Below are positions 37,963 through 60,199 of a stretch of DNA of 64,000 bases, piece by piece. The stretch lies in the NCBI GenBank assembly GCA_017467515.1, contig JAFUSU010000027.1:51099-115098 (forward strand), in the 5' to 3' direction. Below the pieces are notes generated by a model. It was not told where the DNA came from. It ran no database searches and saw nothing but the letters and a program-made list of their open reading frames with translations. Each line of letters opens with the position of its first letter. Within the stretch, counting starts at the first letter, position 1. Source of the stretch: Alphaproteobacteria bacterium. Lineage in GTDB: Bacteria; Pseudomonadota; Alphaproteobacteria; RF32; CAG-239. The position numbers and the translations under genes were made by a program.

Positions 37963-39783
37963 ATGCAGATGAGGAATATTGCCATAATTGCCCACGTTGA
38001 CCACGGTAAAACGACACTTGTGGACGGGCTGTTAAGACAAAGCGGCACATTCAGAGATAATCAAAAAGTTGCCGAATGTGTTATGGATAGTAATGATTTG
38101 GAAAGAGAAAGAGGAATTACGATTCTTTCTAAATGTACCTCCGTTGATTGGCACGGCACACATATTAATATTGTTGACACTCCCGGACACGCCGATTTTG
38201 GCGGAGAGGTTGAACGCATTTTATCAATGGTTGACGGCGTTGTTTTATTGGTAGATGCTTCCGAAGGCCCGATGCCTCAAACCAAATTCGTTTTAGGTAA
38301 AGCGCTCAAAATCGGGTTAAAACCGATTGTGGTTATTAACAAAGCCGATAAGCCCGATGCTCGTGTTGATGAGGTTTTAGATGAAATTTTCGATTTATTT
38401 GTCAGCCTGAATGCCAATGACGAACAACTGGATTTCCCTGTTTTATATGCTTCCGGTCGTAACGGTTGGGCTGTTAAAGAAATGACGGATGAGAAAAAAG
38501 ACTTAACCCCGTTGTTTGAGTTAATCTTATCTTATGTTCCGGAACCGAATTGCGAACCTGATGCCCCATTTAAGATGCTTGCCACCACGTTGGAAGCTAA
38601 CAAATTTATCGGACGTCTGCTAACCGGTAAAATTCAATCAGGCACCTTACACGTGAATGATACCGTTAAAGTCTTAGACGGCAATAATCAAGAACTGGAA
38701 CGTGTTCGTATCAGCAAAATTCTGGCTTATCAAGGCTTGGACCGTGTTTCTTTAGATGTTGCTCATGCCGGAGATATTGTTGCTGTTGCCGGTGTTGTTA
38801 AAGGTACCGTGGCTGATACTTTATGCGATTTCACGGTAGAAGAAGCAATTAAAGCACAACCGATTGATCCGCCGACTTTGGCAATGACTTTTTCAATTAA
38901 CGATTCTCCTCTTGCCGGACGCGAGGGCGATAAAGTAACCTCTCGTATGATTTGGGACAGATTGTGTAAAGAGGCTGAAGGCAACATCGCCCTCAAGATT
39001 TCCCGTACCGATCAAACCGATTCTTTTGAAGTCGCCGGTCGCGGTGAGTTACAGCTCGGTGTTTTGATTGAAACAATGCGCCGTGAAGGATTCGAGCTTT
39101 CCATTTCTCGTCCGAAAGTTTTAATGAAACGCGATGAAAACGGCAATTTGTTAGAGCCGGTTGAAGAAGTTGTCATTGATGTTGATGAAGAATTTTCCGG
39201 TACGGTTGTTGAAAAACTCGGTCAAAAACGTGCCGAATTGGTTGAGATGATTCCTTCTCAGCTCGGTAATAAAGTTCGTTTAATTTTCAATGCCCCGTCA
39301 CGCGGCCTCATCGGTTATCACTCCGAATTTTTAACCGACACCCGCGGTACCGGTGTTATGAACCGAATTTTTAAAGCGTATGAACCCTATAAAGGAGATA
39401 TGATGGGGCGCCGCAACGGCGTGCTGATTTCTGCCGAAAACGGTACTGCGATTGCTTATTCGTTATGGAAATTACAAGACCGCGGTCCGATGTTTATTGA
39501 TGCCAATGTTCCGGTTTATACCGGTATGATTATCGGCGAACACACCAAATCCAATGATTTGGAAGTTAACTGCTGCAAATCTAAGCAATTAACCAACATC
39601 CGCGCCGCCGGTAAAGATGAGGCGATTGATTTGATTCCTCCGCGCAAATTGTCTTTGGAACAAGCTTTGTCCTATATTCAAGATGATGAACTCTTGGAAG
39701 TTACTCCGAAAACATTGCGTCTGCGCAAACGTATTTTAGATCCGTTAGCCCGCAAACGTGCTAAACCGGAAGTAATTGAATAA
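37963..39783 (+). CDS. typA: Translational GTPase TypA/BipA
   Basis: [16 protein letters not shown]1 motif, [12 protein letters not shown]; 606 aa. Confidence 0.95.
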
Positions 39784-39935
39784 AACGGAAACAAAAAACG
39801 ACATCAGCCTCCAAGCCTTTATCTGTAAGTCTTGGAGGTTTATTTTTGGAATAAATTGGAACATTTTGAAACATTTTGGAACATTTTGGAACGTTTCACC
39901 CTCTGGAAAGATGATGTTATTTATGATAAATATAT
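39784..39935 (+). repeat. Cassette repeat A: terminator-like hairpin (39808-39847) + conserved segment with 3x 10-bp AACATTTTGG micro-tandem
   Basis: CCTCCAAG-loop-CTTGGAGG followed by a T-run. Homologous to the repeats at 40385 and 41216. Confidence 0.8.
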
Positions 39936-40069
39936 TTATGTCTTACCACAAAAAATGCCACAAATTCACCTTTGTATAAATATGATCAACAATTGCAAAA
40001 CAATGCATATGAGTATATAAAATATAGGGCAAAACATCGTTTTGGCGGTCTATTTTAAGGATAAATTTA

Positions 40070-40384
40070 ATGAAAAAAATATCATCTACTGTAAAAAAAA
40101 CACTCATTTTTTTATTTTTAGCGTTTACAATCCCTTGGATAAATATGGCAACATTTTTTACATCTGCAAAAAATTATCTCGATGAGGAATCTCTAACTTT
40201 ACTCGAAAATGAATCTGAAACAATATATCGCCATTTTTACCTTATTTCCTTATGGGCTCTTATACTGACTTACATTATCGCCAAACAAGTCATTAATAAA
40301 AAAACAAACAAATGGCTTTGGCGAATTGTTTGGTATGTCATTACTGACATTATCCTTTTCTTTGCTTTATGCTTTCTTCCTTAA
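40070..40384 (+). CDS. Small 3-TM membrane protein, paralogue 1 of 3 (immunity-like, hypothetical)
   Basis: 104 aa. C-terminal LTYIIAKQVINKKTNKWLWRIVWYVITDIILFFALCFLP is shared with 40907 and 41414; the N-terminal half has diverged. Confidence 0.65.
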   Translation: MKKISSTVKKTLIFLFLAFTIPWINMATFFTSAKNYLDEESLTLLENESETIYRHFYLISLWALILTYIIAKQVINKKTNKWLWRIVWYVITDIILFFALCFLP

Positions 40385-40535
40385 GAAAAATAAAAAAACG
40401 ACATCACCCTCTATACCTTATAGACTAAGCTTTGAAGGTTTGTTTTTGAAACAAATTGGAACATTTTGGGACACATTAGAACATTTCCCCTACTGGAAAG
40501 ACGATCCTTTTTATGATAAATATATTTTTGTTTTG
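40385..40535 (+). repeat. Cassette repeat B (degenerate hairpin) with conserved peptide-coding stub ...LFLKQIGTFWDTLEHFPYWKDDPFYDKYIFVL
   Basis: Aligns to repeat A (39784) and repeat C (41216); hairpin arms are mutated. Confidence 0.75.
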
Positions 40536-40557
40536 ATAACTAAAAAAGGAAAATATT

Positions 40558-40896
40558 ATGCTATATCCATTACTAAAATTTTCGTTTCGACAAGGAGCTA
40601 AATACTTCGGCTTAAAAAATATTGATTCCGCAGGAATAAAAGAATTAAATAAAAAAGAAGACTATGCCATAAACGCATACCGTGATAAATCTAGCAAACT
40701 CTATAAAAACAAAAAACTGCTTAAAGAATATTACAATCCAGACCTTCCTATTGATAAAAAAGTGTCAAAATGGAATGAAAAAGACTTAATAAATGCCGTA
40801 AATTCGCCTTTATATAAATATGATAAAAACTTGCAATCTATGGCAAAGAATTATATAAAGAAAAGAGCAAAACATAGATTTAACGGATTGAAATAA
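40558..40896 (+). CDS. Lysine-rich basic 112-aa protein (hypothetical; candidate toxin/bacteriocin-like partner of the membrane proteins)
   Basis: ATG with a GGAAAA RBS-like sequence. A truncated copy of its C-terminus (..YDKNLQSMAKNYIKKRAKHRYNGLK) follows repeat C (41330-41410). A more divergent C-terminal remnant (EYIKYRAKHRFGGLF) follows repeat A (~39985-40032). Confidence 0.55.
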   Translation: MLYPLLKFSFRQGAKYFGLKNIDSAGIKELNKKEDYAINAYRDKSSKLYKNKKLLKEYYNPDLPIDKKVSKWNEKDLINAVNSPLYKYDKNLQSMAKNYIKKRAKHRFNGLK

Positions 40897-40906
40897 GGAA
40901 TATTTT

Positions 40907-41215
40907 ATGTCTAAAAAACTTTTTAAAAATATCTTACTCTTTTTGACTTTGGCTTTCACTATTCCATGGCTTAATCTGGCGGCATATTTTACCCTGTTAA
41001 TGGTTAACGCTGATAGTGAAATACAGGAAATTTTAGAAGAAGATCCCGCAACCATTTTCGAAAATTTCTACCTTATTTCTTTATGGGCTTTTATACTGAC
41101 TTACATTATTGCCAAACAAGTCATCAATAAAAAAACAAATAACTGGCTGTGGCGAATAATTTGGTACATCATTACCGATATTATCCTTTTCTTTGCTCTG
41201 TGCCTGATTCCTTAA
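40907..41215 (+). CDS. Small 3-TM membrane protein, paralogue 2 of 3
   Basis: RBS AAGGAA. The last ~45 codons are near-identical at DNA level to 41414..41725. Confidence 0.65.
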   Translation: MSKKLFKNILLFLTLAFTIPWLNLAAYFTLLMVNADSEIQEILEEDPATIFENFYLISLWAFILTYIIAKQVINKKTNNWLWRIIWYIITDIILFFALCLIP

Positions 41216-41340
41216 AAAAAAATAAAAAAAACGACATAAACCTCCAAGCCTTATCACCTAAGGTTTGGAGGTTTGTTTTTGGAACGGATTGGAACATATT
41301 GGGACACATTTGAACATTTCCCCTACTGGGAATATGATAA
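41216..41340 (+). repeat. Cassette repeat C: near-perfect hairpin (41241-41280) + conserved stub fused in-frame to a 3' fragment of the 112-aa ORF
   Basis: CCTCCAAGCCTTA-loop-TAAGGTTTGGAGG followed by TTTGTTTTT; encodes IGTYWDTFEHFPYWEYDKNLQSMAKNYIKKRAKHRYNGLK with no obvious start codon. Confidence 0.8.
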
Positions 41341-41413
41341 AAACTTGCAATCTATGGCAAAGAATTATATAAAGAAAAGAGCAAAACATAGATACAATGG
41401 GCTAAAATAGAAA

Positions 41414-41725
41414 ATGTACAACTTTTTTACAACCATTAAGAAAGCTTTTTTTCTTTTAATCACCGCCTTTATTGTAGCTTGGTTTTCAACCGGTGCTTTA
41501 TTTGCGATGTTTGAAAGCTTGGAGGATGAAGATATTCAAGCGCTTATTTCGAAAAACTTCTCTTTTGCATATATGAATATTTTTCAAGATGCAATTATTG
41601 CTTTTACGCTGACTTACATTATTGCCAAACAAGTCATCAATAAAAAAACAAATAACTGGCTGTGGCGAATAATTTGGTACATCATTACCGACATTATCCT
41701 TTTCTTTGCTTTATGTCTTATTTGA
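41414..41725 (+). CDS. Small 3-TM membrane protein, paralogue 3 of 3
   Basis: 103 aa; conserved C-terminus, divergent N-terminal loop. Confidence 0.65.
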   Translation: MYNFFTTIKKAFFLLITAFIVAWFSTGALFAMFESLEDEDIQALISKNFSFAYMNIFQDAIIAFTLTYIIAKQVINKKTNNWLWRIIWYIITDIILFFALCLI

Positions 41726-41804
41726 TAAATTTCTTTGTTTAAAGCTTGCTTTTAGACAAAATTTGTGATATATTCTCAGCTAATAGAATATTAAAAATAA
41801 ATTA

Positions 41805-42041
41805 TTGAAAAGTATGAAGAAGGTTTTATTTTACACAGTAATGTCAGCAACATTTAGCTGTGTTGCTATACTTGATTTAATTGCGTCTGTTGTAAATTTT
41901 ATAGAGCACAGATATATGGATTTTACTTTTGGAATAGGCATAACTGTTCTGGCAACATTTGCCGCCGGATATTTTGCCGGTTGTACCTCAAGAACTATCC
42001 ATAAAATAAAACAATCCGCAAAAAATCCCCGAGTTACATAA
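41805..42041 (+). CDS. Small 2-TM membrane protein, hypothetical (78 aa)
   Basis: Two hydrophobic helices. Followed by terminator AAAAATCCCCGAG..CTCAGGGATTTTTT (42021-42056). Confidence 0.45.
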   Translation: MKSMKKVLFYTVMSATFSCVAILDLIASVVNFIEHRYMDFTFGIGITVLATFAAGYFAGCTSRTIHKIKQSAKNPRVT

Positions 42042-42142
42042 GCTCAGGGATTTTTTATTTGTATTTTTACAAACTTATTCTTTACAGAAAAATTTTCCTT
42101 TTATATACTCCCTGCAAAATTAATTATTAAAACTACTATTAT

Positions 42143-42556
42143 ATGAAAAAAATTATTATTTACTTTTTAGCGGTCCTGATGGTCTTATTCTGCATCAGTT
42201 GCACCAGCGCCCCGGTTCACCCGAAAATTATCGGTTGTGCAAAGATTCAATACGCACCGGATGATGATCTTTATTTCATTGACGTGGATAACAATTTACA
42301 CGAAGTTGTTCATATCATTGATAATAAAGCCTTATTGAGCGGAGATAAACAAATTCCACCTAGAGAGGGTGTGCTGGTAACGGCGTTCGTAACAGCAAAT
42401 GATTCTCAGATTCAGTTTATAAAGGGAAACCTGAATAAAAAAGACATTGAGGCCGCTTTCAGTAAAGACTATACCTTATTCTGGTTATTGGTTTTAGGGT
42501 TGTCTTGGCTGTTCTACCTAAATCGCAAAAAAGAAAAACTTTCTCATTACGATTAA
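42143..42556 (+). CDS. Lipoprotein with C-terminal TM anchor, hypothetical (137 aa)
   Basis: Lipobox FCISC after signal peptide. C-terminal LFWLLVLGLSWLFYL. Followed at 42558-42597 by a second copy of the same terminator seen after 41805..42041. Confidence 0.55.
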   Translation: MKKIIIYFLAVLMVLFCISCTSAPVHPKIIGCAKIQYAPDDDLYFIDVDNNLHEVVHIIDNKALLSGDKQIPPREGVLVTAFVTANDSQIQFIKGNLNKKDIEAAFSKDYTLFWLLVLGLSWLFYLNRKKEKLSHYD

Positions 42557-42715
42557 TAAAAATCCCCGAGTTGCCTAAACTCAGGGATTTTTTTATAAGT
42601 ATCCGAATATTCATCCCCTTTGTAAAGGGGAGGCTAGGCAGGGTAGAATAACCCACCCTAACCCTCCCTCACATAGGGAGGGAATAATAAGCATTTTTTA
42701 TCGATTAACTCTGCA

Positions 42716-43249
42716 CTAATCGTGCGAAGACTGAGTTTTCTGCAACTTCTTTATAATCATCTGCCTTTTCAACCGACTAATCCGATCAATATATAAAACC
42801 CCGTCCAAATGATCTAACTCGTGTTGCAAACAAACCGACAACAACCCGTCGCCCAAAATTTCCTGCTCTTTACCATTGTAGTCGGTATAATGAACTTTCA
42901 CTTGCGCATAACGTTCTACTTCGGCACGTTGTCCGGGAACGGATAAACATCCTTCTTCACCGCAAACTTTCTCATCAGAATGCCAAATAATTGAAGGATT
43001 AACTAAAAACAGGGGCGTTCCTTTCCGAAGTTCTCCGGTTTCCTCATCATCTTCCTGATGAACATCTATCACAACAATTCGTTTGGAAATACCGACTTGA
43101 GGAGCGGCTAAACCGACACCGGCATCGGCATACATTGTTTCCAACATATTATCAAGCAGTTGACGTATTTCATCGTCAACTTTATCGACTTTTTGAGCCT
43201 TTTTTTTCAACACCGGCTCAGGATAGGTATAGAGTTTTAATACTGTCAT
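42716..43249 (-). CDS. def: Peptide deformylase
   Basis: GVGLAAPQVG, EGCLSVPG, HELDHLDG motifs. Confidence 0.9.
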   Translation of the reverse strand: MTVLKLYTYPEPVLKKKAQKVDKVDDEIRQLLDNMLETMYADAGVGLAAPQVGISKRIVVIDVHQEDDEETGELRKGTPLFLVNPSIIWHSDEKVCGEEGCLSVPGQRAEVERYAQVKVHYTDYNGKEQEILGDGLLSVCLQHELDHLDGVLYIDRISRLKRQMIIKKLQKTQSSHD

Positions 43250-58793: not shown

Positions 58794-59477
58794 TCACACC
58801 TGCTGTTTTTTATAAATTAACCCTAATCTGGTCGCCTCAAGAACTGCGCCCATACGGTTATAAACGCCCAGTATTTTAAATATCGCAGTCAAATGAAGCT
58901 TGACCGTTCCCTCTGTTAACCCCAATTCATAAGCAATTTGCTTGTTAGATTTTCCGGAAGCAACCGCTTCCAAAACATCTTTTTGTCGTGGTGTTAAATG
59001 TTTGGTTGTGAACTCCTGAGGATGATCTTCTATCAATTTTAATAACAATTTATCTGTCGTAGAATTTTTATCAATATGTTGTCCCTGCAACAAATCTTTT
59101 GAAAAATAAGCACCACCTGAAATAACAACATCGAGAGCATCTAAAATTTCTTGATGAGATGATGTTTTTGATAAGTAACCGGAAACCCCTATTTCTATGG
59201 TCTTTTGAACAATTTCTTCATCAAAAATGGCTGATAAAATAATAATCGGTGTATCCGATAATTTGTTATGAATTTTTGCAATAGCATTATTCCAAATATC
59301 GCCTGGCATTGCCAAATCTGTTAAAATGACATCAAAATCAGATTCTTTTTCAATAATATCATATAATTCCAGATAATTTCCGGCCGTTAAAATTTTAGCA
59401 CGAGGATATTTGCCGGATAGAACCAATTCCAACCCGCGCAAAAACAATTCGTGATCATCTGCCACCAAAAATTTCAT
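58794..59477 (-). CDS. LuxR/NarL/FixJ-family response regulator (REC + HTH)
   Basis: MKFLVADDHELF.. with phospho-acceptor Asp in ILTDLAMPG. C-terminal LTPRQKDVLEAVASGKSNKQIAYELGLTEGTVKLH LuxR HTH. Start ATG 59477 with GGAG upstream. Confidence 0.8.
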   Translation of the reverse strand: MKFLVADDHELFLRGLELVLSGKYPRAKILTAGNYLELYDIIEKESDFDVILTDLAMPGDIWNNAIAKIHNKLSDTPIIILSAIFDEEIVQKTIEIGVSGYLSKTSSHQEILDALDVVISGGAYFSKDLLQGQHIDKNSTTDKLLLKLIEDHPQEFTTKHLTPRQKDVLEAVASGKSNKQIAYELGLTEGTVKLHLTAIFKILGVYNRMGAVLEATRLGLIYKKQQV

Positions 59478-60199
59478 TGCCAATCTCCACTTAATGCCTG
59501 CCAACAAGACAATGCCGCGACAACGGCTGTTTCTGCCCTTAATATTCTCTGTCCCAAATTCACGGCTTTTGCAAAAGAAGCTTTTCTCAAAGTTGCTAAC
59601 TCTTCCGTGGAAAATCCGCCTTCGGGACCAACCATTATGGCGCAGGGAACATCAGCTTGTGCAAATACTTTAGCCACCGTATCTCCCGCCAAAGTTTCAT
59701 CCATATAGTATAATATTCTTTTTTTATCCCATTTTTGCAACAAATCAACAAATTTAACGACTTCGGAAATTTCCGGAAGATCTGTCCGCCGGCATTGTTC
59801 CGCAGCTTCGATAGAATTTGCTTCAAATCGCTCTTTTTTTATTCTTTCGCTTATTGTATATCTTGTCAAGACCGGAATAATACGACGTGCCCCCAATTCT
59901 GTTGCTTTTTGAATAATAAAATCCGTATTATCCTTTTTCACGGGAGCAAAAATCAACCAAACATCAGGAACTTGAATGTATGGTCTTTCCATACTGATGG
60001 ACCTCAAGACCGTATGTTTTTTATTCAAAACAACAGGCACACAACGATACTCTCCGCTTTGATTGTCAAAACAATACAAAATCTGATTTTCTTTTATTTT
60101 CATAACATTGCACAAATAGTGACTCTGCTGCTCACTCAGGTCAACTGGCTCATCAATGTTTAATCTTTGAGGTATGTATAAGCGGATTTGTCCCATCAA
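59474..60199 (-). CDS. rsmE: 16S rRNA m3U1498 methyltransferase RsmE
   Basis: PUA-like N-terminus and SPOUT C-terminal motif (GPEGGFS..E); 241 aa. Confidence 0.75.
   Translation of the reverse strand: MMGQIRLYIPQRLNIDEPVDLSEQQSHYLCNVMKIKENQILYCFDNQSGEYRCVPVVLNKKHTVLRSISMERPYIQVPDVWLIFAPVKKDNTDFIIQKATELGARRIIPVLTRYTISERIKKERFEANSIEAAEQCRRTDLPEISEVVKFVDLLQKWDKKRILYYMDETLAGDTVAKVFAQADVPCAIMVGPEGGFSTEELATLRKASFAKAVNLGQRILRAETAVVAALSCWQALSGDWQ

What the first reader, a model, noticed from the sequence alone, without database searches (positions are those of the whole stretch)
39784..41760. Three-module cassette array between typA and def: repeat stub + lysine-rich ORF (or its fragment) + variable small membrane protein
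Each module begins with a ~130-150 bp direct repeat (39784, 40385, 41216). The repeat is a terminator-like hairpin, then a segment that in copies B and C encodes a conserved peptide (..LFL(K/E)(Q/R)IGT(F/Y)WDT(L/F)EHFPYW..), joined at a YDK junction to different C-terminal tails. Copy B runs into a complete 112-aa Lys-rich ORF. In copy C the stub is fused in frame to only the last 22 codons of that ORF. Copy A carries a 10-bp micro-tandem expansion (AACATTTTGG x3) that shifts the frame, followed by a more divergent C-terminal remnant (EYIKYRAKHRFGGLF). Every module ends with a paralogous ~103-aa 3-TM protein. Their C-terminal 45 residues are nearly identical at the DNA level, while the N-terminal loop is unrelated between copies. 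A conserved junction, displaced variable tips, and co-varying small membrane partners are the organisation of orphan toxin-tip/immunity or class-II bacteriocin/immunity arrays. No full-length toxin, secretion gene or recognisable toxin domain is present, so this may be a new small-peptide/immunity or defence family. The island interrupts housekeeping genes and has no integrase.
Basis: partly seen in the sequence, partly recalled or inferred. Interest (0 to 1): 0.8.

Follow-up and report, generated by a model that had tools for sequence, protein, structure and literature searches.

The report
Strain-variable small membrane-protein cassette array
Between two housekeeping genes of an uncultured gut alphaproteobacterium sit three tandem, separately switched mini-operons for an unannotated small protein and its 3-helix membrane partner; their number and order differ between strains, as in bacterial toxin/immunity loci, but the function is untested.

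Summary
The three-module array is real. It also occurs in an independent assembly, and its copy number and order vary between strains. The "conserved stub peptide" is not a peptide. It is non-coding DNA: an intrinsic terminator followed by 4-5 TTGGAAC heptamers in strict 10-bp register and a conserved box, most likely an operator/promoter. The unit number changes the reading frame between otherwise intact modules.

The core is a conserved two-gene pair with no Pfam, NCBIfam, PADLOC or PHROG family:
- K, a small soluble protein (112 aa here).
- mem, a ~103-aa 3-TM protein.

K pairs with a mem homologue in at least six divergent lineages. K is repeatedly 5'-deleted or frameshifted, while mem is always kept.

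The mem 3' halves, the terminator and the operator are homogenised. This shared stretch is the likely recombination substrate that duplicates and shuffles modules.

In a sister species the same terminator and heptamer array after typA drives a GH24/pesticin-like muramidase. That muramidase is 80% identical to the C-terminal part of MuF-domain proteins. A second shared upstream gene also precedes either K+mem or that muramidase.

Best reading, inferred only: a co-regulated effector/protector (immunity-like) cassette array. No parent toxin, secretion signal or recombinase was found. The "orphan toxin tip" reading is not supported.

The parts
37963..39783 (+). typA/bipA (left flank, housekeeping)
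   Evidence: 606-aa ORF. Pfam GTP_EFTU/BipA_C on the identical gene in L001. 86-98% identical in 80 related genomes.
39806..39849 (+). Module A intrinsic-terminator hairpin and T-run (also ends typA)
   Evidence: Fold -17.1 kcal/mol, z -2.4. The T-run runs into the first heptamer.
39846..39911 (+). Module A operator: 5 phased decamers (TTGGAAC+3 nt) and conserved box TCACCCTCTGGAAAGA
39954..40052 (+). Remnant of the K gene 3' end (GGLF-type allele), 5' part deleted
   Evidence: tblastn to K112 residues 79-111, 73% identity. The same remnant is in L001.
40070..40384 (+). memA, 104-aa 3-TM protein, subtype 1
   Evidence: 97% identical to the L001 gene.
40385..40445 (+). Module B hairpin, degenerate
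   Evidence: Fold -7.7 kcal/mol, z -1.1. The same decayed sequence is in L001.
40446..40501 (+). Module B operator: 4 phased decamers and box TCCCCTACTGGAAAGA
40558..40896 (+). K112, the intact small soluble Lys-rich protein (K family)
   Evidence: ORF with an AAGGA ribosome-binding site. 4 close and ~13 distant homologues. pN/pS (ratio of non-synonymous to synonymous proportions of differences) is 0.35-0.65 with pS saturated. No family hit.
40907..41215 (+). memB, 102-aa 3-TM protein, subtype 1
   Evidence: AlphaFold2 pLDDT 87.7, helices 3-34, 37-45, 47-76, 80-99.
41236..41278 (+). Module C intrinsic-terminator hairpin and T-run
   Evidence: Fold -26.4 kcal/mol, z -5.9. Inverted repeat I7.
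41279..41332 (+). Module C operator: 4 phased decamers and box TCCCCTACTGGGAA, ending at the deletion joint
   Evidence: The identical joint is in L223 module 2.
41310..41338 (+). Sigma-70-like hybrid promoter created by the deletion (TTGAAC-17-TATGAT)
   Evidence: Consensus scan, 9 of 12. Function is inferred.
41321..41410 (+). Remnant of the K gene 3' end (last ~29 codons)
   Evidence: tblastn to K112 residues 84-112, 86% identity. DNA alignment.
41414..41725 (+). memC, 103-aa 3-TM protein, subtype 2
   Evidence: 96% identical to the second membrane gene of L001.
41805..42056 (+). orf78, a small 2-TM protein whose last codons (NPRVT) are the 5' arm of a terminator hairpin (42020-42056)
   Evidence: 58% identical homologue directly after typA in L003.
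42143..42593 (+). orf137, a predicted lipoprotein with a C-terminal anchor, plus a second copy of the same terminator (42558-42593)
   Evidence: Homologues in L013 (24% identity) and L223.
42716..43249 (-). def (right flank, housekeeping)
   Evidence: 177-aa ORF. Pfam Pep_deformylase on the orthologue in L001.

Best explanation
SHOWN
- The typA-def gap of this uncultured gut alphaproteobacterium is a hypervariable insertion spot.
- Here it holds three tandem units. Each unit reads: hairpin and T-run (degenerate in B), then 4-5 TTGGAAC heptamers in 10-bp register, then a conserved box ...TTTCCCCTACTGGAAA, then cargo.
- The cargo is the gene pair K (small soluble protein) and mem (3-TM protein). 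The pair is intact only in module B. In A and C two different internal deletions removed most of K but kept mem.
- About 290 bp are shared between modules: the mem 3' half, the terminator and the operator. This stretch is homogenised, while the mem 5' halves are old paralogues of two subtypes.
- Copy number, order and cargo differ between strains.

INFERRED MECHANISM
1. The shared 290-bp segment is the substrate for unequal homologous recombination and gene conversion. These duplicate, delete and shuffle modules. No dedicated recombinase is needed.
2. The phased heptamers are binding sites for one oligomerising DNA-binding regulator, as in OmpR/PhoB/ArcA/TorR-type direct-repeat operators. They sit upstream of a weak promoter, so all modules respond to one signal.
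3. The C-type deletion fuses the last heptamer to an internal TATGAT. This gives a sigma-70-like promoter that would express mem independently of the regulator.
4. K+mem works as an effector/protector pair. K is the harmful or costly partner, and mem is the membrane protein that protects the producer. Its variable TM1 and acidic periplasmic loop would set specificity. Strains therefore accumulate mem paralogues and lose K, as with orphan immunity genes.

The stub 'peptide' is a by-product of translating the operator.
For: Architecture:
- Modules, repeats and ORFs.
- Heptamer arrays are 10-fold over chance. Information content is 1.25-2.0 bits at heptamer positions against 0.44-1.1 in the spacers, over 42 units from 9 arrays.
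- Unit number is 4 or 5, so the frame is not conserved.
- Hairpins of A and C fold far better than shuffles.

Recombination:
- pS is 0.2-0.4 in the mem 3' part against 0.78-0.90 in the 5' part.
- The identical deletion joint sits in front of different mem subtypes in the window and in L223.
- Strain layouts: L222 has 3 modules; L001/2 have 2; L003-8 have a frameshifted K and 1 mem; L009 has mem-K-mem; L223 has at least 4 mem genes and a new 86-aa cargo.
- The empty site in L014 is 66 bp.

Gene pair:
- K is next to a mem homologue in at least 6 divergent lineages. HMM bit scores are 102, 95, 53, 32, 28 and 12.
- K is under purifying selection.
- 5'-truncated K genes recur in the database (P0020, P0021, P0026, P0027, P0030, P0031), and K is inactivated in L001 and L003.

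Conflict-type link:
- In L010/L217 the same terminator and heptamer array after typA precedes a 240-aa muramidase.
- Many homologues of that muramidase carry Pfam Pesticin, Phage_lysozyme or Phage_Mu_F. P0036 has Phage_Mu_F at 36.8 bits.
- MuF-fused C-terminal domains are a described family of phage-borne polymorphic toxins (PMC5576092).
- A 150/153-aa ORF (47% identity, E 6e-42) precedes either that muramidase or K83+mem.
- Multiple 10-11-bp-phased direct repeats are documented operators of winged-helix response regulators (PMC3798270).
Against: - No toxicity, secretion or protection has been shown.
- K has no signal peptide, double-glycine leader or recognisable toxin domain. Its AlphaFold2 model is unreliable (pLDDT 55).
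- Lys-richness is specific to this lineage; other K proteins have net charge 0 to +4.
- The muramidase of L010/L217 itself scores below Pfam threshold (19 bits against 25.8). It has no mem-like neighbour.
- No regulator, transporter or secretion gene lies at the locus. The only response regulator in the 64-kb window is a NarL/FixJ type 17 kb away.
- Promoter positions are consensus guesses.
- Loss of K with retention of mem would also fit K simply being dispensable.
Confidence: 0.4

Rival explanations
1. Phage-exclusion or defence cassettes. The mem proteins, and perhaps orf78, orf86 and orf137, are prophage-type superinfection-exclusion or abortive-infection membrane proteins collected in a chromosomal hot spot. 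K is an accessory sensor or partner.
For: - Distant K+mem pairs sit in mobile contexts. One lies beside a tyrosine recombinase (L095; Pfam Phage_integrase 71 bits).
- The related 150-aa ORF with the muramidase lies next to a replication-initiator-like gene and a run of small ORFs (L218).
- The locus is AT-rich, strain-variable and full of small membrane or lipoprotein genes.
- orf86 gives a weak PHROG 'moron membrane protein' hit (E 0.028).
Against: - No PADLOC hit for any protein.
- No significant PHROG hit for K or mem.
- No phage structural or regulatory genes at the typA-def locus.
- Recurrent loss of K is not predicted if K is the sensor.
Confidence: 0.2
2. Ordinary regulated envelope genes. 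The array is a tandemly amplified set of lineage-specific small inner-membrane proteins belonging to one envelope or stress regulon. That regulon would include a peptidoglycan hydrolase in a sister species. There is no role in conflict, and K is a dispensable chaperone-like partner.
For: - The common operator is shared with a muramidase gene.
- The TM2-loop-TM3 part of mem is strongly conserved (21 invariant columns in 16 sequences).
- K is often lost without loss of mem.
- No toxin or secretion features are present.
Against: - The family is extremely narrow: 13 mem clusters among 5.8 billion.
- The genes are absent from the closest sister species, which have an empty or differently filled gap.
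- Copy number and order change between strains, and the pair also occurs in mobile contexts. This is unusual for core envelope functions.
Confidence: 0.2
3. Lysis module. mem is a holin-like protein and K an accessory lysis factor, interchangeable with, or acting together with, the muramidase found at the same site in other strains.
For: - K+mem and the muramidase occupy equivalent positions in two contexts.
- memC gives a weak PHROG holin hit (E 0.03).
- mem has three TM helices.
Against: - mem ends inside TM3, with no charged C-terminal tail.
- Three tandem paralogues with diverged periplasmic loops are not expected for a holin.
- No endolysin lies at the locus in this window.
- BFVD fold search gives no match with E < 2.
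Confidence: 0.07
4. Each repeat encodes a conserved N-terminal peptide stub that is joined at a YDK junction to alternative toxin tips, as in CDI/Rhs orphan modules.
For: - ORFs of 91 and 45 aa can be read through the repeats in B and C.
- Each tip or remnant is followed by a membrane gene.
Against: - The ORFs read through a terminator hairpin and have no usable ribosome-binding site.
- All B/C differences are non-synonymous.
- The 10-bp unit number varies between 4 and 5, so the frame shifts.
- In L010 the same element precedes an unrelated gene that has its own start codon 70 nt downstream.
- No parent gene exists in 1.84 billion representatives.
Confidence: 0.03

Closest known systems
Orphan immunity gene arrays, in particular recombinase-associated acquired interbacterial defence clusters (rAID-1) of gut Bacteroidales (Ross et al., bioRxiv 10.1101/471110)
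   Same: - Gut bacterium.
- Co-directional array of small genes with low G+C.
- Repeated intergenic sequence in front of each gene.
- Toxin-gene remnants next to retained protective genes.
- Strain-to-strain variation in content.
   Different: - No XerD-like recombinase at the locus.
- The repeats are a terminator plus a phased heptamer operator, not integron-like sites.
- All protective genes are paralogues of one family.
- No homology to any known immunity or toxin family.
- The host phylum differs (Alphaproteobacteria).
- Protection is not demonstrated.
Class II bacteriocin / microcin operons (structural gene followed by a small membrane immunity gene, under a signal-responsive regulator that binds direct repeats)
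   Same: - A small protein gene is followed within ~10 nt by a ~100-aa multi-TM gene.
- Direct-repeat operator lies upstream.
- The structural gene decays while the immunity-like gene is retained.
   Different: - K (83-120 aa) has no double-glycine or Sec leader.
- No ABC exporter or C39 peptidase, and no histidine kinase or regulator genes, lie nearby.
- K is helical and, in this lineage, Lys-rich; it is not Gly-rich or hydrophobic.
OmpR/PhoB/ArcA/TorR-type operators (several direct repeats spaced one helical turn apart; PMC3798270 for ArcA with 2-5 repeats at 11 bp)
   Same: - 4-5 direct repeats at one-turn spacing upstream of the presumed core promoter.
- The repeat number varies between promoters.
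- From memory, TGAAACAT-like half-sites resemble OmpR sites.
   Different: - Spacing is exactly 10 bp.
- The regulator is unknown.
- The array abuts a terminator T-run.
- No binding or expression data exist.
MuF polymorphic toxins of temperate phages (PMC5576092)
   Same: The muramidase that replaces K+mem behind the same operator in L010/L217 is 80% identical to the C-terminal part of proteins carrying a Phage_Mu_F domain.
   Different: - This concerns the sister-species cargo, not the window.
- The L217 protein lacks the MuF domain.
- K has no relation to MuF proteins.

Membership tests
CDI/Rhs-type orphan toxin-tip + immunity modules | Orphan tips are C-terminal fragments of a large delivery protein and share a conserved coding junction with a full-length parent | tested here: not met
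   A profile search of 1.84 billion representatives finds only small stand-alone K proteins. The three long hits are repeat or low-complexity artefacts. The 'junction' is a deletion joint inside non-coding and K 3' sequence.
CDI/Rhs-type orphan toxin-tip + immunity modules | A cognate immunity gene lies immediately downstream of each tip | tested here: inconclusive
   A mem gene follows each K or K remnant, and K-mem pairing is conserved in at least 6 lineages. Immunity function is not shown.
Class II bacteriocin / microcin with immunity | Precursor with a double-glycine or Sec leader, plus a dedicated exporter | tested here: not met
   No hydrophobic signal segment (max Kyte-Doolittle 0.30). 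No GG-leader motif is seen in the alignment. No transporter gene lies between typA and def. The rest of the genome is not available.
Class II bacteriocin / microcin with immunity | A small membrane immunity gene is co-transcribed downstream of the structural gene | tested here: inconclusive
   The K stop and mem start are 3-22 nt apart in all lineages. Transcription was not measured.
rAID-1 (recombinase-associated acquired interbacterial defence) | [quoted passage not shown] | tested here: not met
   No recombinase ORF lies between typA and def. The only recombinase seen is a 194-aa protein next to a distant K+mem pair in L095.
rAID-1 (recombinase-associated acquired interbacterial defence) | At least 2 co-directional downstream genes, G+C of 41% or less, repeated intergenic sequences | tested here: met
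   Six co-directional genes. GC is 29-32%. Repeat families D1 and D2.
rAID-1 (recombinase-associated acquired interbacterial defence) | Genes homologous to known interbacterial immunity families | tested here: not met
   No Pfam, NCBIfam or PADLOC family.
Integron cassette array | intI integrase with attI, and attC sites flanking the cassettes | tested here: not met
   No integrase. The repeats are a terminator hairpin plus phased direct heptamers, not attC-like imperfect palindromes.
Phage holin | Small TM protein with a charged hydrophilic C-terminal tail, encoded next to an endolysin | tested here: not met
   mem ends in TM3 (...FFALCLIP). No endolysin in the window. PHROG holin E 0.03 only. 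BFVD gives no match.
Winged-helix response-regulator operator (OmpR/PhoB/ArcA type) | Direct repeats phased by one helical turn, upstream of or overlapping -35 | tested here: met
   4-5 heptamers at exactly 10 bp, ending ~25-40 nt before TATGAT-like -10 candidates.
Winged-helix response-regulator operator (OmpR/PhoB/ArcA type) | A cognate regulator that binds the repeats | not testable with these tools
   Only 64 kb of the genome is available. The one response regulator in it is a NarL/FixJ type.

The most novel reading that the evidence does not exclude
K+mem is a previously undescribed interbacterial antagonism system of gut Alphaproteobacteria. K would be a leaderless small protein effector. 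Each mem would be a cognate 3-TM immunity protein whose TM1 and periplasmic loop set specificity. Strains would build immunity repertoires by recombination through a shared terminator/operator segment. The whole set, including an orphan MuF-type muramidase in sister species, would be switched on by one unknown regulator that reads phased TTGGAAC heptamers.
Probability: 0.25. Interest if true: 0.75.

Novelty: new variant of a known kind. Interest (0 to 1): 0.55.

Why it matters
- These gut Alphaproteobacteria are uncultured, common in human and animal guts, and almost unstudied. Nothing is known about how they compete or defend themselves.
- The locus offers a compact, testable candidate. It comprises two unannotated protein families, a clear operator motif that could define a regulon, and a natural series of strains with 0 to at least 4 cassettes.
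- It shows a way to build and shuffle cassette arrays without a dedicated recombinase. Each cassette carries the same ~290-bp gene-end/terminator/operator segment.
- As a caution for annotation, a regularly phased operator translates into a convincing-looking 'conserved peptide'.

Tried and rejected
- Pfam, NCBIfam, PADLOC and PHROGs on K112, the three mem proteins, orf78 and orf137 gave nothing above threshold.
- A PDB sequence search with the K profile gave nothing.
- AlphaFold2 of K112 gave pLDDT 55, so it was not used for fold search.
- A genome-contig scan with the mem alignment found no relative among 185,579 species representatives.
- A metagenome-contig scan for TTGGAACNNNWTGRRACNNNTTNGAAC returned 120 stretches. 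None carries K, mem or the muramidase, so they are chance or unrelated repeats.
- Rfam on 39500-42800 gave only sub-threshold leader-peptide matches that reflect the terminators.
- Sigma-54, EcfG (GGAAC-N16-17-CGTT) and CtrA (TTAA-N7-TTAAC) readings of the heptamers were checked by eye. They were rejected because the second element is missing at the required spacing.
- A recalled E. coli OmpR sequence used as tblastn query found only one NarL/FixJ-type response regulator (58794-59507, -) in the window.
- Assembly artefact was rejected, because L222 and L223 reproduce the modules independently.
- Long hits of the K profile (P0018, P0024, P0025) were inspected and dismissed as repeat proteins.
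Full report
OBSERVATION

The region between typA (37963-39783, +) and def (42716-43249, -) contains three head-to-tail modules: A 39784-40384, B 40385-41215 and C 41216-41725.

It also returns a second family covering the 3' ends of the three membrane genes.

Module B carries an intact 112-aa ORF, here called K112 (40558-40896). It is 21% Lys with net charge +16. Modules A and C keep only the 3' end of that gene, at 39954-40052 and 41321-41407.

Each module ends with a 102-104-aa protein, here called mem. It has three hydrophobic segments. Its AlphaFold2 model is confident (pLDDT 87.7) and shows three long helices and one short one.

The island has 29-32% G+C against 37-43% around it. The same three-module layout occurs in an independent metagenome assembly, L222, with no nucleotide difference in K112. 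It is therefore not an assembly artefact.

THE STUB IS AN OPERATOR, NOT A PEPTIDE

Written in 10-nt register, the repeats read as follows:
- A: TTGGAATAAA TTGGAACATT TTGAAACATT TTGGAACATT TTGGAACGTT | TCACCCTCTGGAAAGA
- B: TTGAAACAAA TTGGAACATT TTGGGACACA TTAGAACATT | TCCCCTACTGGAAAGA
- C: TTGGAACGGA TTGGAACATA TTGGGACACA TTTGAACATT | TCCCCTACTGGGAA

The two-heptamer pattern occurs 11 times in the 64-kb window against 1.07 expected, and 0 of 100 shuffles reach 11. Ten of the 11 matches lie here.

Over 42 units from nine arrays (window, L001, L223, L010), the heptamer positions carry 1.25-2.0 bits and the three spacer positions 0.44-1.1 bits.

Arrays have four or five units. Window B, upstream of intact K112, has four. 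L223 module 3, upstream of a K112 that differs by 1 nt, has five. A 10-nt step changes the reading frame, so no peptide can be conserved across these arrays.

The putative ORFs would also have to be read through a hairpin that folds at -26.4 kcal/mol in C (z -5.9) and -17.1 in A. The B hairpin has decayed to -7.7.

The 'AACATTTTGG x3 expansion' in A is simply a fifth operator unit.

I read the element as an intrinsic terminator that insulates each module, then a phased array of protein-binding sites, then a weak promoter. Direct repeats one helical turn apart, in variable number, are the documented architecture of winged-helix response-regulator operators. ArcA uses 2-5 repeats at 11 bp, with OmpR and PhoB cited there (PMC3798270). 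The resemblance of TGAAACAT to OmpR half-sites is from memory only. The regulator is unknown.

THE CARGO IS A CONSERVED GENE PAIR

K112 has 4 close relatives among 5.8 billion clusters. A profile search of 1.84 billion representatives finds about 13 genuine small relatives of 48-120 aa. They share an N-terminal amphipathic segment, an LNxxED motif and a C-terminal ...VSxWxxxDLxxAxxSPxYxYxxxLQxKxxEYI... block. The three long hits are repeat proteins.

K genes from five lineages show saturated synonymous differences and pN/pS of 0.35-0.65, so K is a real protein under constraint.

mem has 13 relatives. The family has an almost invariant TM2-loop-TM3 part (21 invariant columns) and two N-terminal subtypes that recur across strains.

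Wherever context is available, K lies next to a mem homologue. This holds for the window, L009, L091, L226, L094 and L090, with bit scores of 102 down to 12 against the mem HMM. The weakest shares only length and topology.

None of these proteins matches Pfam, NCBIfam, PADLOC or PHROGs above threshold. Fold searches with mem are uninformative. The K model is too poor to use.

STRAIN VARIATION AND HOW THE ARRAY IS BUILT

Record titles place the organism among uncultured gut Alphaproteobacteria, variously labelled 'uncultured Azospirillum sp.', 'Alphaproteobacteria bacterium' or 'Proteobacteria bacterium CAG:495'.

Among species with 91-98% identical TypA the typA-def gap varies widely:
- L014: 66 bp, with one bidirectional terminator.
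- L011: 598 bp.
- L012: 2083 bp.
- L013: 2896 bp.
- K/mem-bearing strains: 1172-1848 bp in other strains; about 2.9 kb in this window.

Layouts in K/mem-bearing strains also differ:
- L001/L002 have two modules: an A-type remnant with mem subtype 1, then an internally deleted K with mem subtype 2.
- L003-L008 have an orf78 homologue, a frameshifted K and one mem.
- L009 has mem-K-mem.
- L223 has at least four mem genes in another order. A new 86-aa membrane-anchored Cys-rich ORF sits behind one operator. The exact C-type deletion joint (CTACTGG|GAATATGAT) now sits in front of a subtype-1 mem.

Within the window the mem 5' halves have pS of 0.78-0.90, while the 3' halves have 0.2-0.4. B and C are identical over 60 nt.

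The simplest mechanism is unequal homologous recombination and gene conversion through the ~290-bp shared segment (mem 3' half, terminator, operator), and through the K 3' end on the other side. No recombinase gene lies at the locus.

The C-type deletion fuses the last heptamer to an internal TATGAT. This gives TTGAAC-17-TATGAT, a plausible regulator-independent promoter for mem. That step is inferred.

LINK TO A MURAMIDASE

In L010/L217 (TypA 98% identical) typA is followed by a different hairpin, then five units: ATGAAAC, TTGGAAC, ATGGGAC, TTGGAAC, TTGGAAC. A box, TTTACCCCTATAG, comes next, and 70 nt later a 240-aa ORF.

That protein scores below the Pfam Pesticin threshold itself (19 against 25.8 bits). 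It has 180 homologues, many with precomputed Pesticin (PF16754), Phage_lysozyme (PF00959) or Phage_Mu_F (PF04233) domains. P0036, 80% identical over 83% of the query, has Phage_Mu_F at 36.8 bits. MuF-fused C-terminal domains are a described class of phage-borne polymorphic toxins (PMC5576092).

There is a second, independent link. A 150-aa ORF precedes this muramidase in L218/L219. Its 47%-identical homologue (E 6e-42) precedes K83+mem in L093-L095. In L095 a 194-aa tyrosine recombinase lies just upstream.

K+mem and the muramidase are thus alternative cargos behind the same control elements in two contexts.

INTERPRETATION

Several features are those of effector/immunity loci in which toxins decay and orphan immunity genes accumulate:
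- a narrow family with strain-variable copy number;
- a low-G+C island at a hot spot;
- a tightly linked pair of soluble and membrane proteins;
- recurrent 5' loss of K with strict retention of mem;
- divergence concentrated in TM1 and the predicted periplasmic loop;
- exchangeability with a pesticin-like muramidase.

The closest described analogue is the rAID-1 cluster of gut Bacteroidales, with low G+C, repeated intergenic sequences and arrays of orphan immunity genes (10.1101/471110). Membership fails on the defining recombinase and on homology to known immunity genes.

There is no parent gene, and the junctions are regulatory DNA or deletion joints. K also lacks any export signal, and no exporter, kinase or regulator lies nearby.

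I give the effector/protector reading about 0.4. Phage exclusion and a plain co-regulated envelope function get about 0.2 each. A holin-type lysis role gets less than 0.1.

VERDICT

This is a real, reproducible and strain-variable cassette array built from two undescribed protein families and a distinctive phased operator. The function is inferred, not shown. It is worth experimental follow-up. It is a new variant of the known 'orphan immunity / small effector-immunity array' theme rather than something categorically new.

Noticed in passing
window 42020-42056 and 42558-42593; also L001 7411-7445, L003 5500-5535, L011 2271-2305, L223 ~2600-2640: One terminator hairpin (AAAAATCCCCGAGTT-loop-AACTCAGGGATTTTT) recurs at the right side of the gap. 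At least three unrelated small 2-TM ORF families end ...NPRV(T/A/S)*. Their last codons are the 5' arm of this hairpin and the stop codon lies in its loop. These are window orf78, the ~90-aa ORFs of L011/L012, and the 69-76-aa ORFs of L001/L013. It looks like a fixed joint behind which cargo is exchanged.
   Followed up: partly
L010 4520-5354; L217 1700-2618: A sister species carries, at the same site and behind the same kind of terminator and TTGGAAC array, a 240-aa GH24/pesticin-like muramidase. It is closely related to the C-terminal part of MuF-domain proteins. No mem-like gene follows it. A convergent ORF of unknown type starts 48 nt downstream.
   Followed up: partly
L218 4454-4906; L093 4441-4902; L094 2949-3410; L095 748-1209: A 150-153-aa protein family has no Pfam or PHROG match. 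It precedes either the muramidase or a K+mem pair. In L095 it is preceded by a 194-aa tyrosine recombinase. In L218 it is followed by a lipoprotein, a replication-initiator-like gene and a run of small ORFs, which suggests a mobile element.
   Followed up: partly
L223 317-577: A new cargo sits behind one operator copy: an 86-aa protein with an N-terminal TM anchor and a Cys-rich, Lys-tailed C-terminal part. A subtype-2 mem gene follows directly.
   Followed up: no
window 42143-42556: orf137 is a predicted lipoprotein (signal ...LFCISC) with a C-terminal hydrophobic anchor. It has homologues in the same gap in L013 (142 aa, 24% identity) and L223 (139 aa). It is another recurrent cargo of the hot spot.
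   Followed up: partly
window 42600-42700; L001 7440-7540: Two G+C-rich hairpin-like inverted repeats (CCCCTTTGTAAAGGGG and CCCTCCCTCACATAGGGAGGG) lie between the last terminator and def. They are conserved in L001. They may be a REP-like element.
   Followed up: no
L012 9899-11351 and L013 10632-12054 (minus strand): In two sister species the same gap holds a 335-337-aa ORF and a 142-154-aa membrane ORF on the opposite strand. By eye they look like an SPFH/stomatin-NfeD pair. This was not tested.
   Followed up: no
window 58794-59507 (-): This is the only response regulator found in the 64-kb window. It is a NarL/FixJ type, with a receiver domain and a LuxR-type HTH. There is no evidence linking it to the heptamer arrays.
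   Followed up: no
P0020, P0021, P0026, P0027, P0030, P0031: Many database K relatives are 5'-truncated or fused to unrelated N-termini, including a glycosyltransferase fragment and a translated terminator. Loss of the K 5' part with retention of its 3' end is therefore recurrent across strains.
   Followed up: partly
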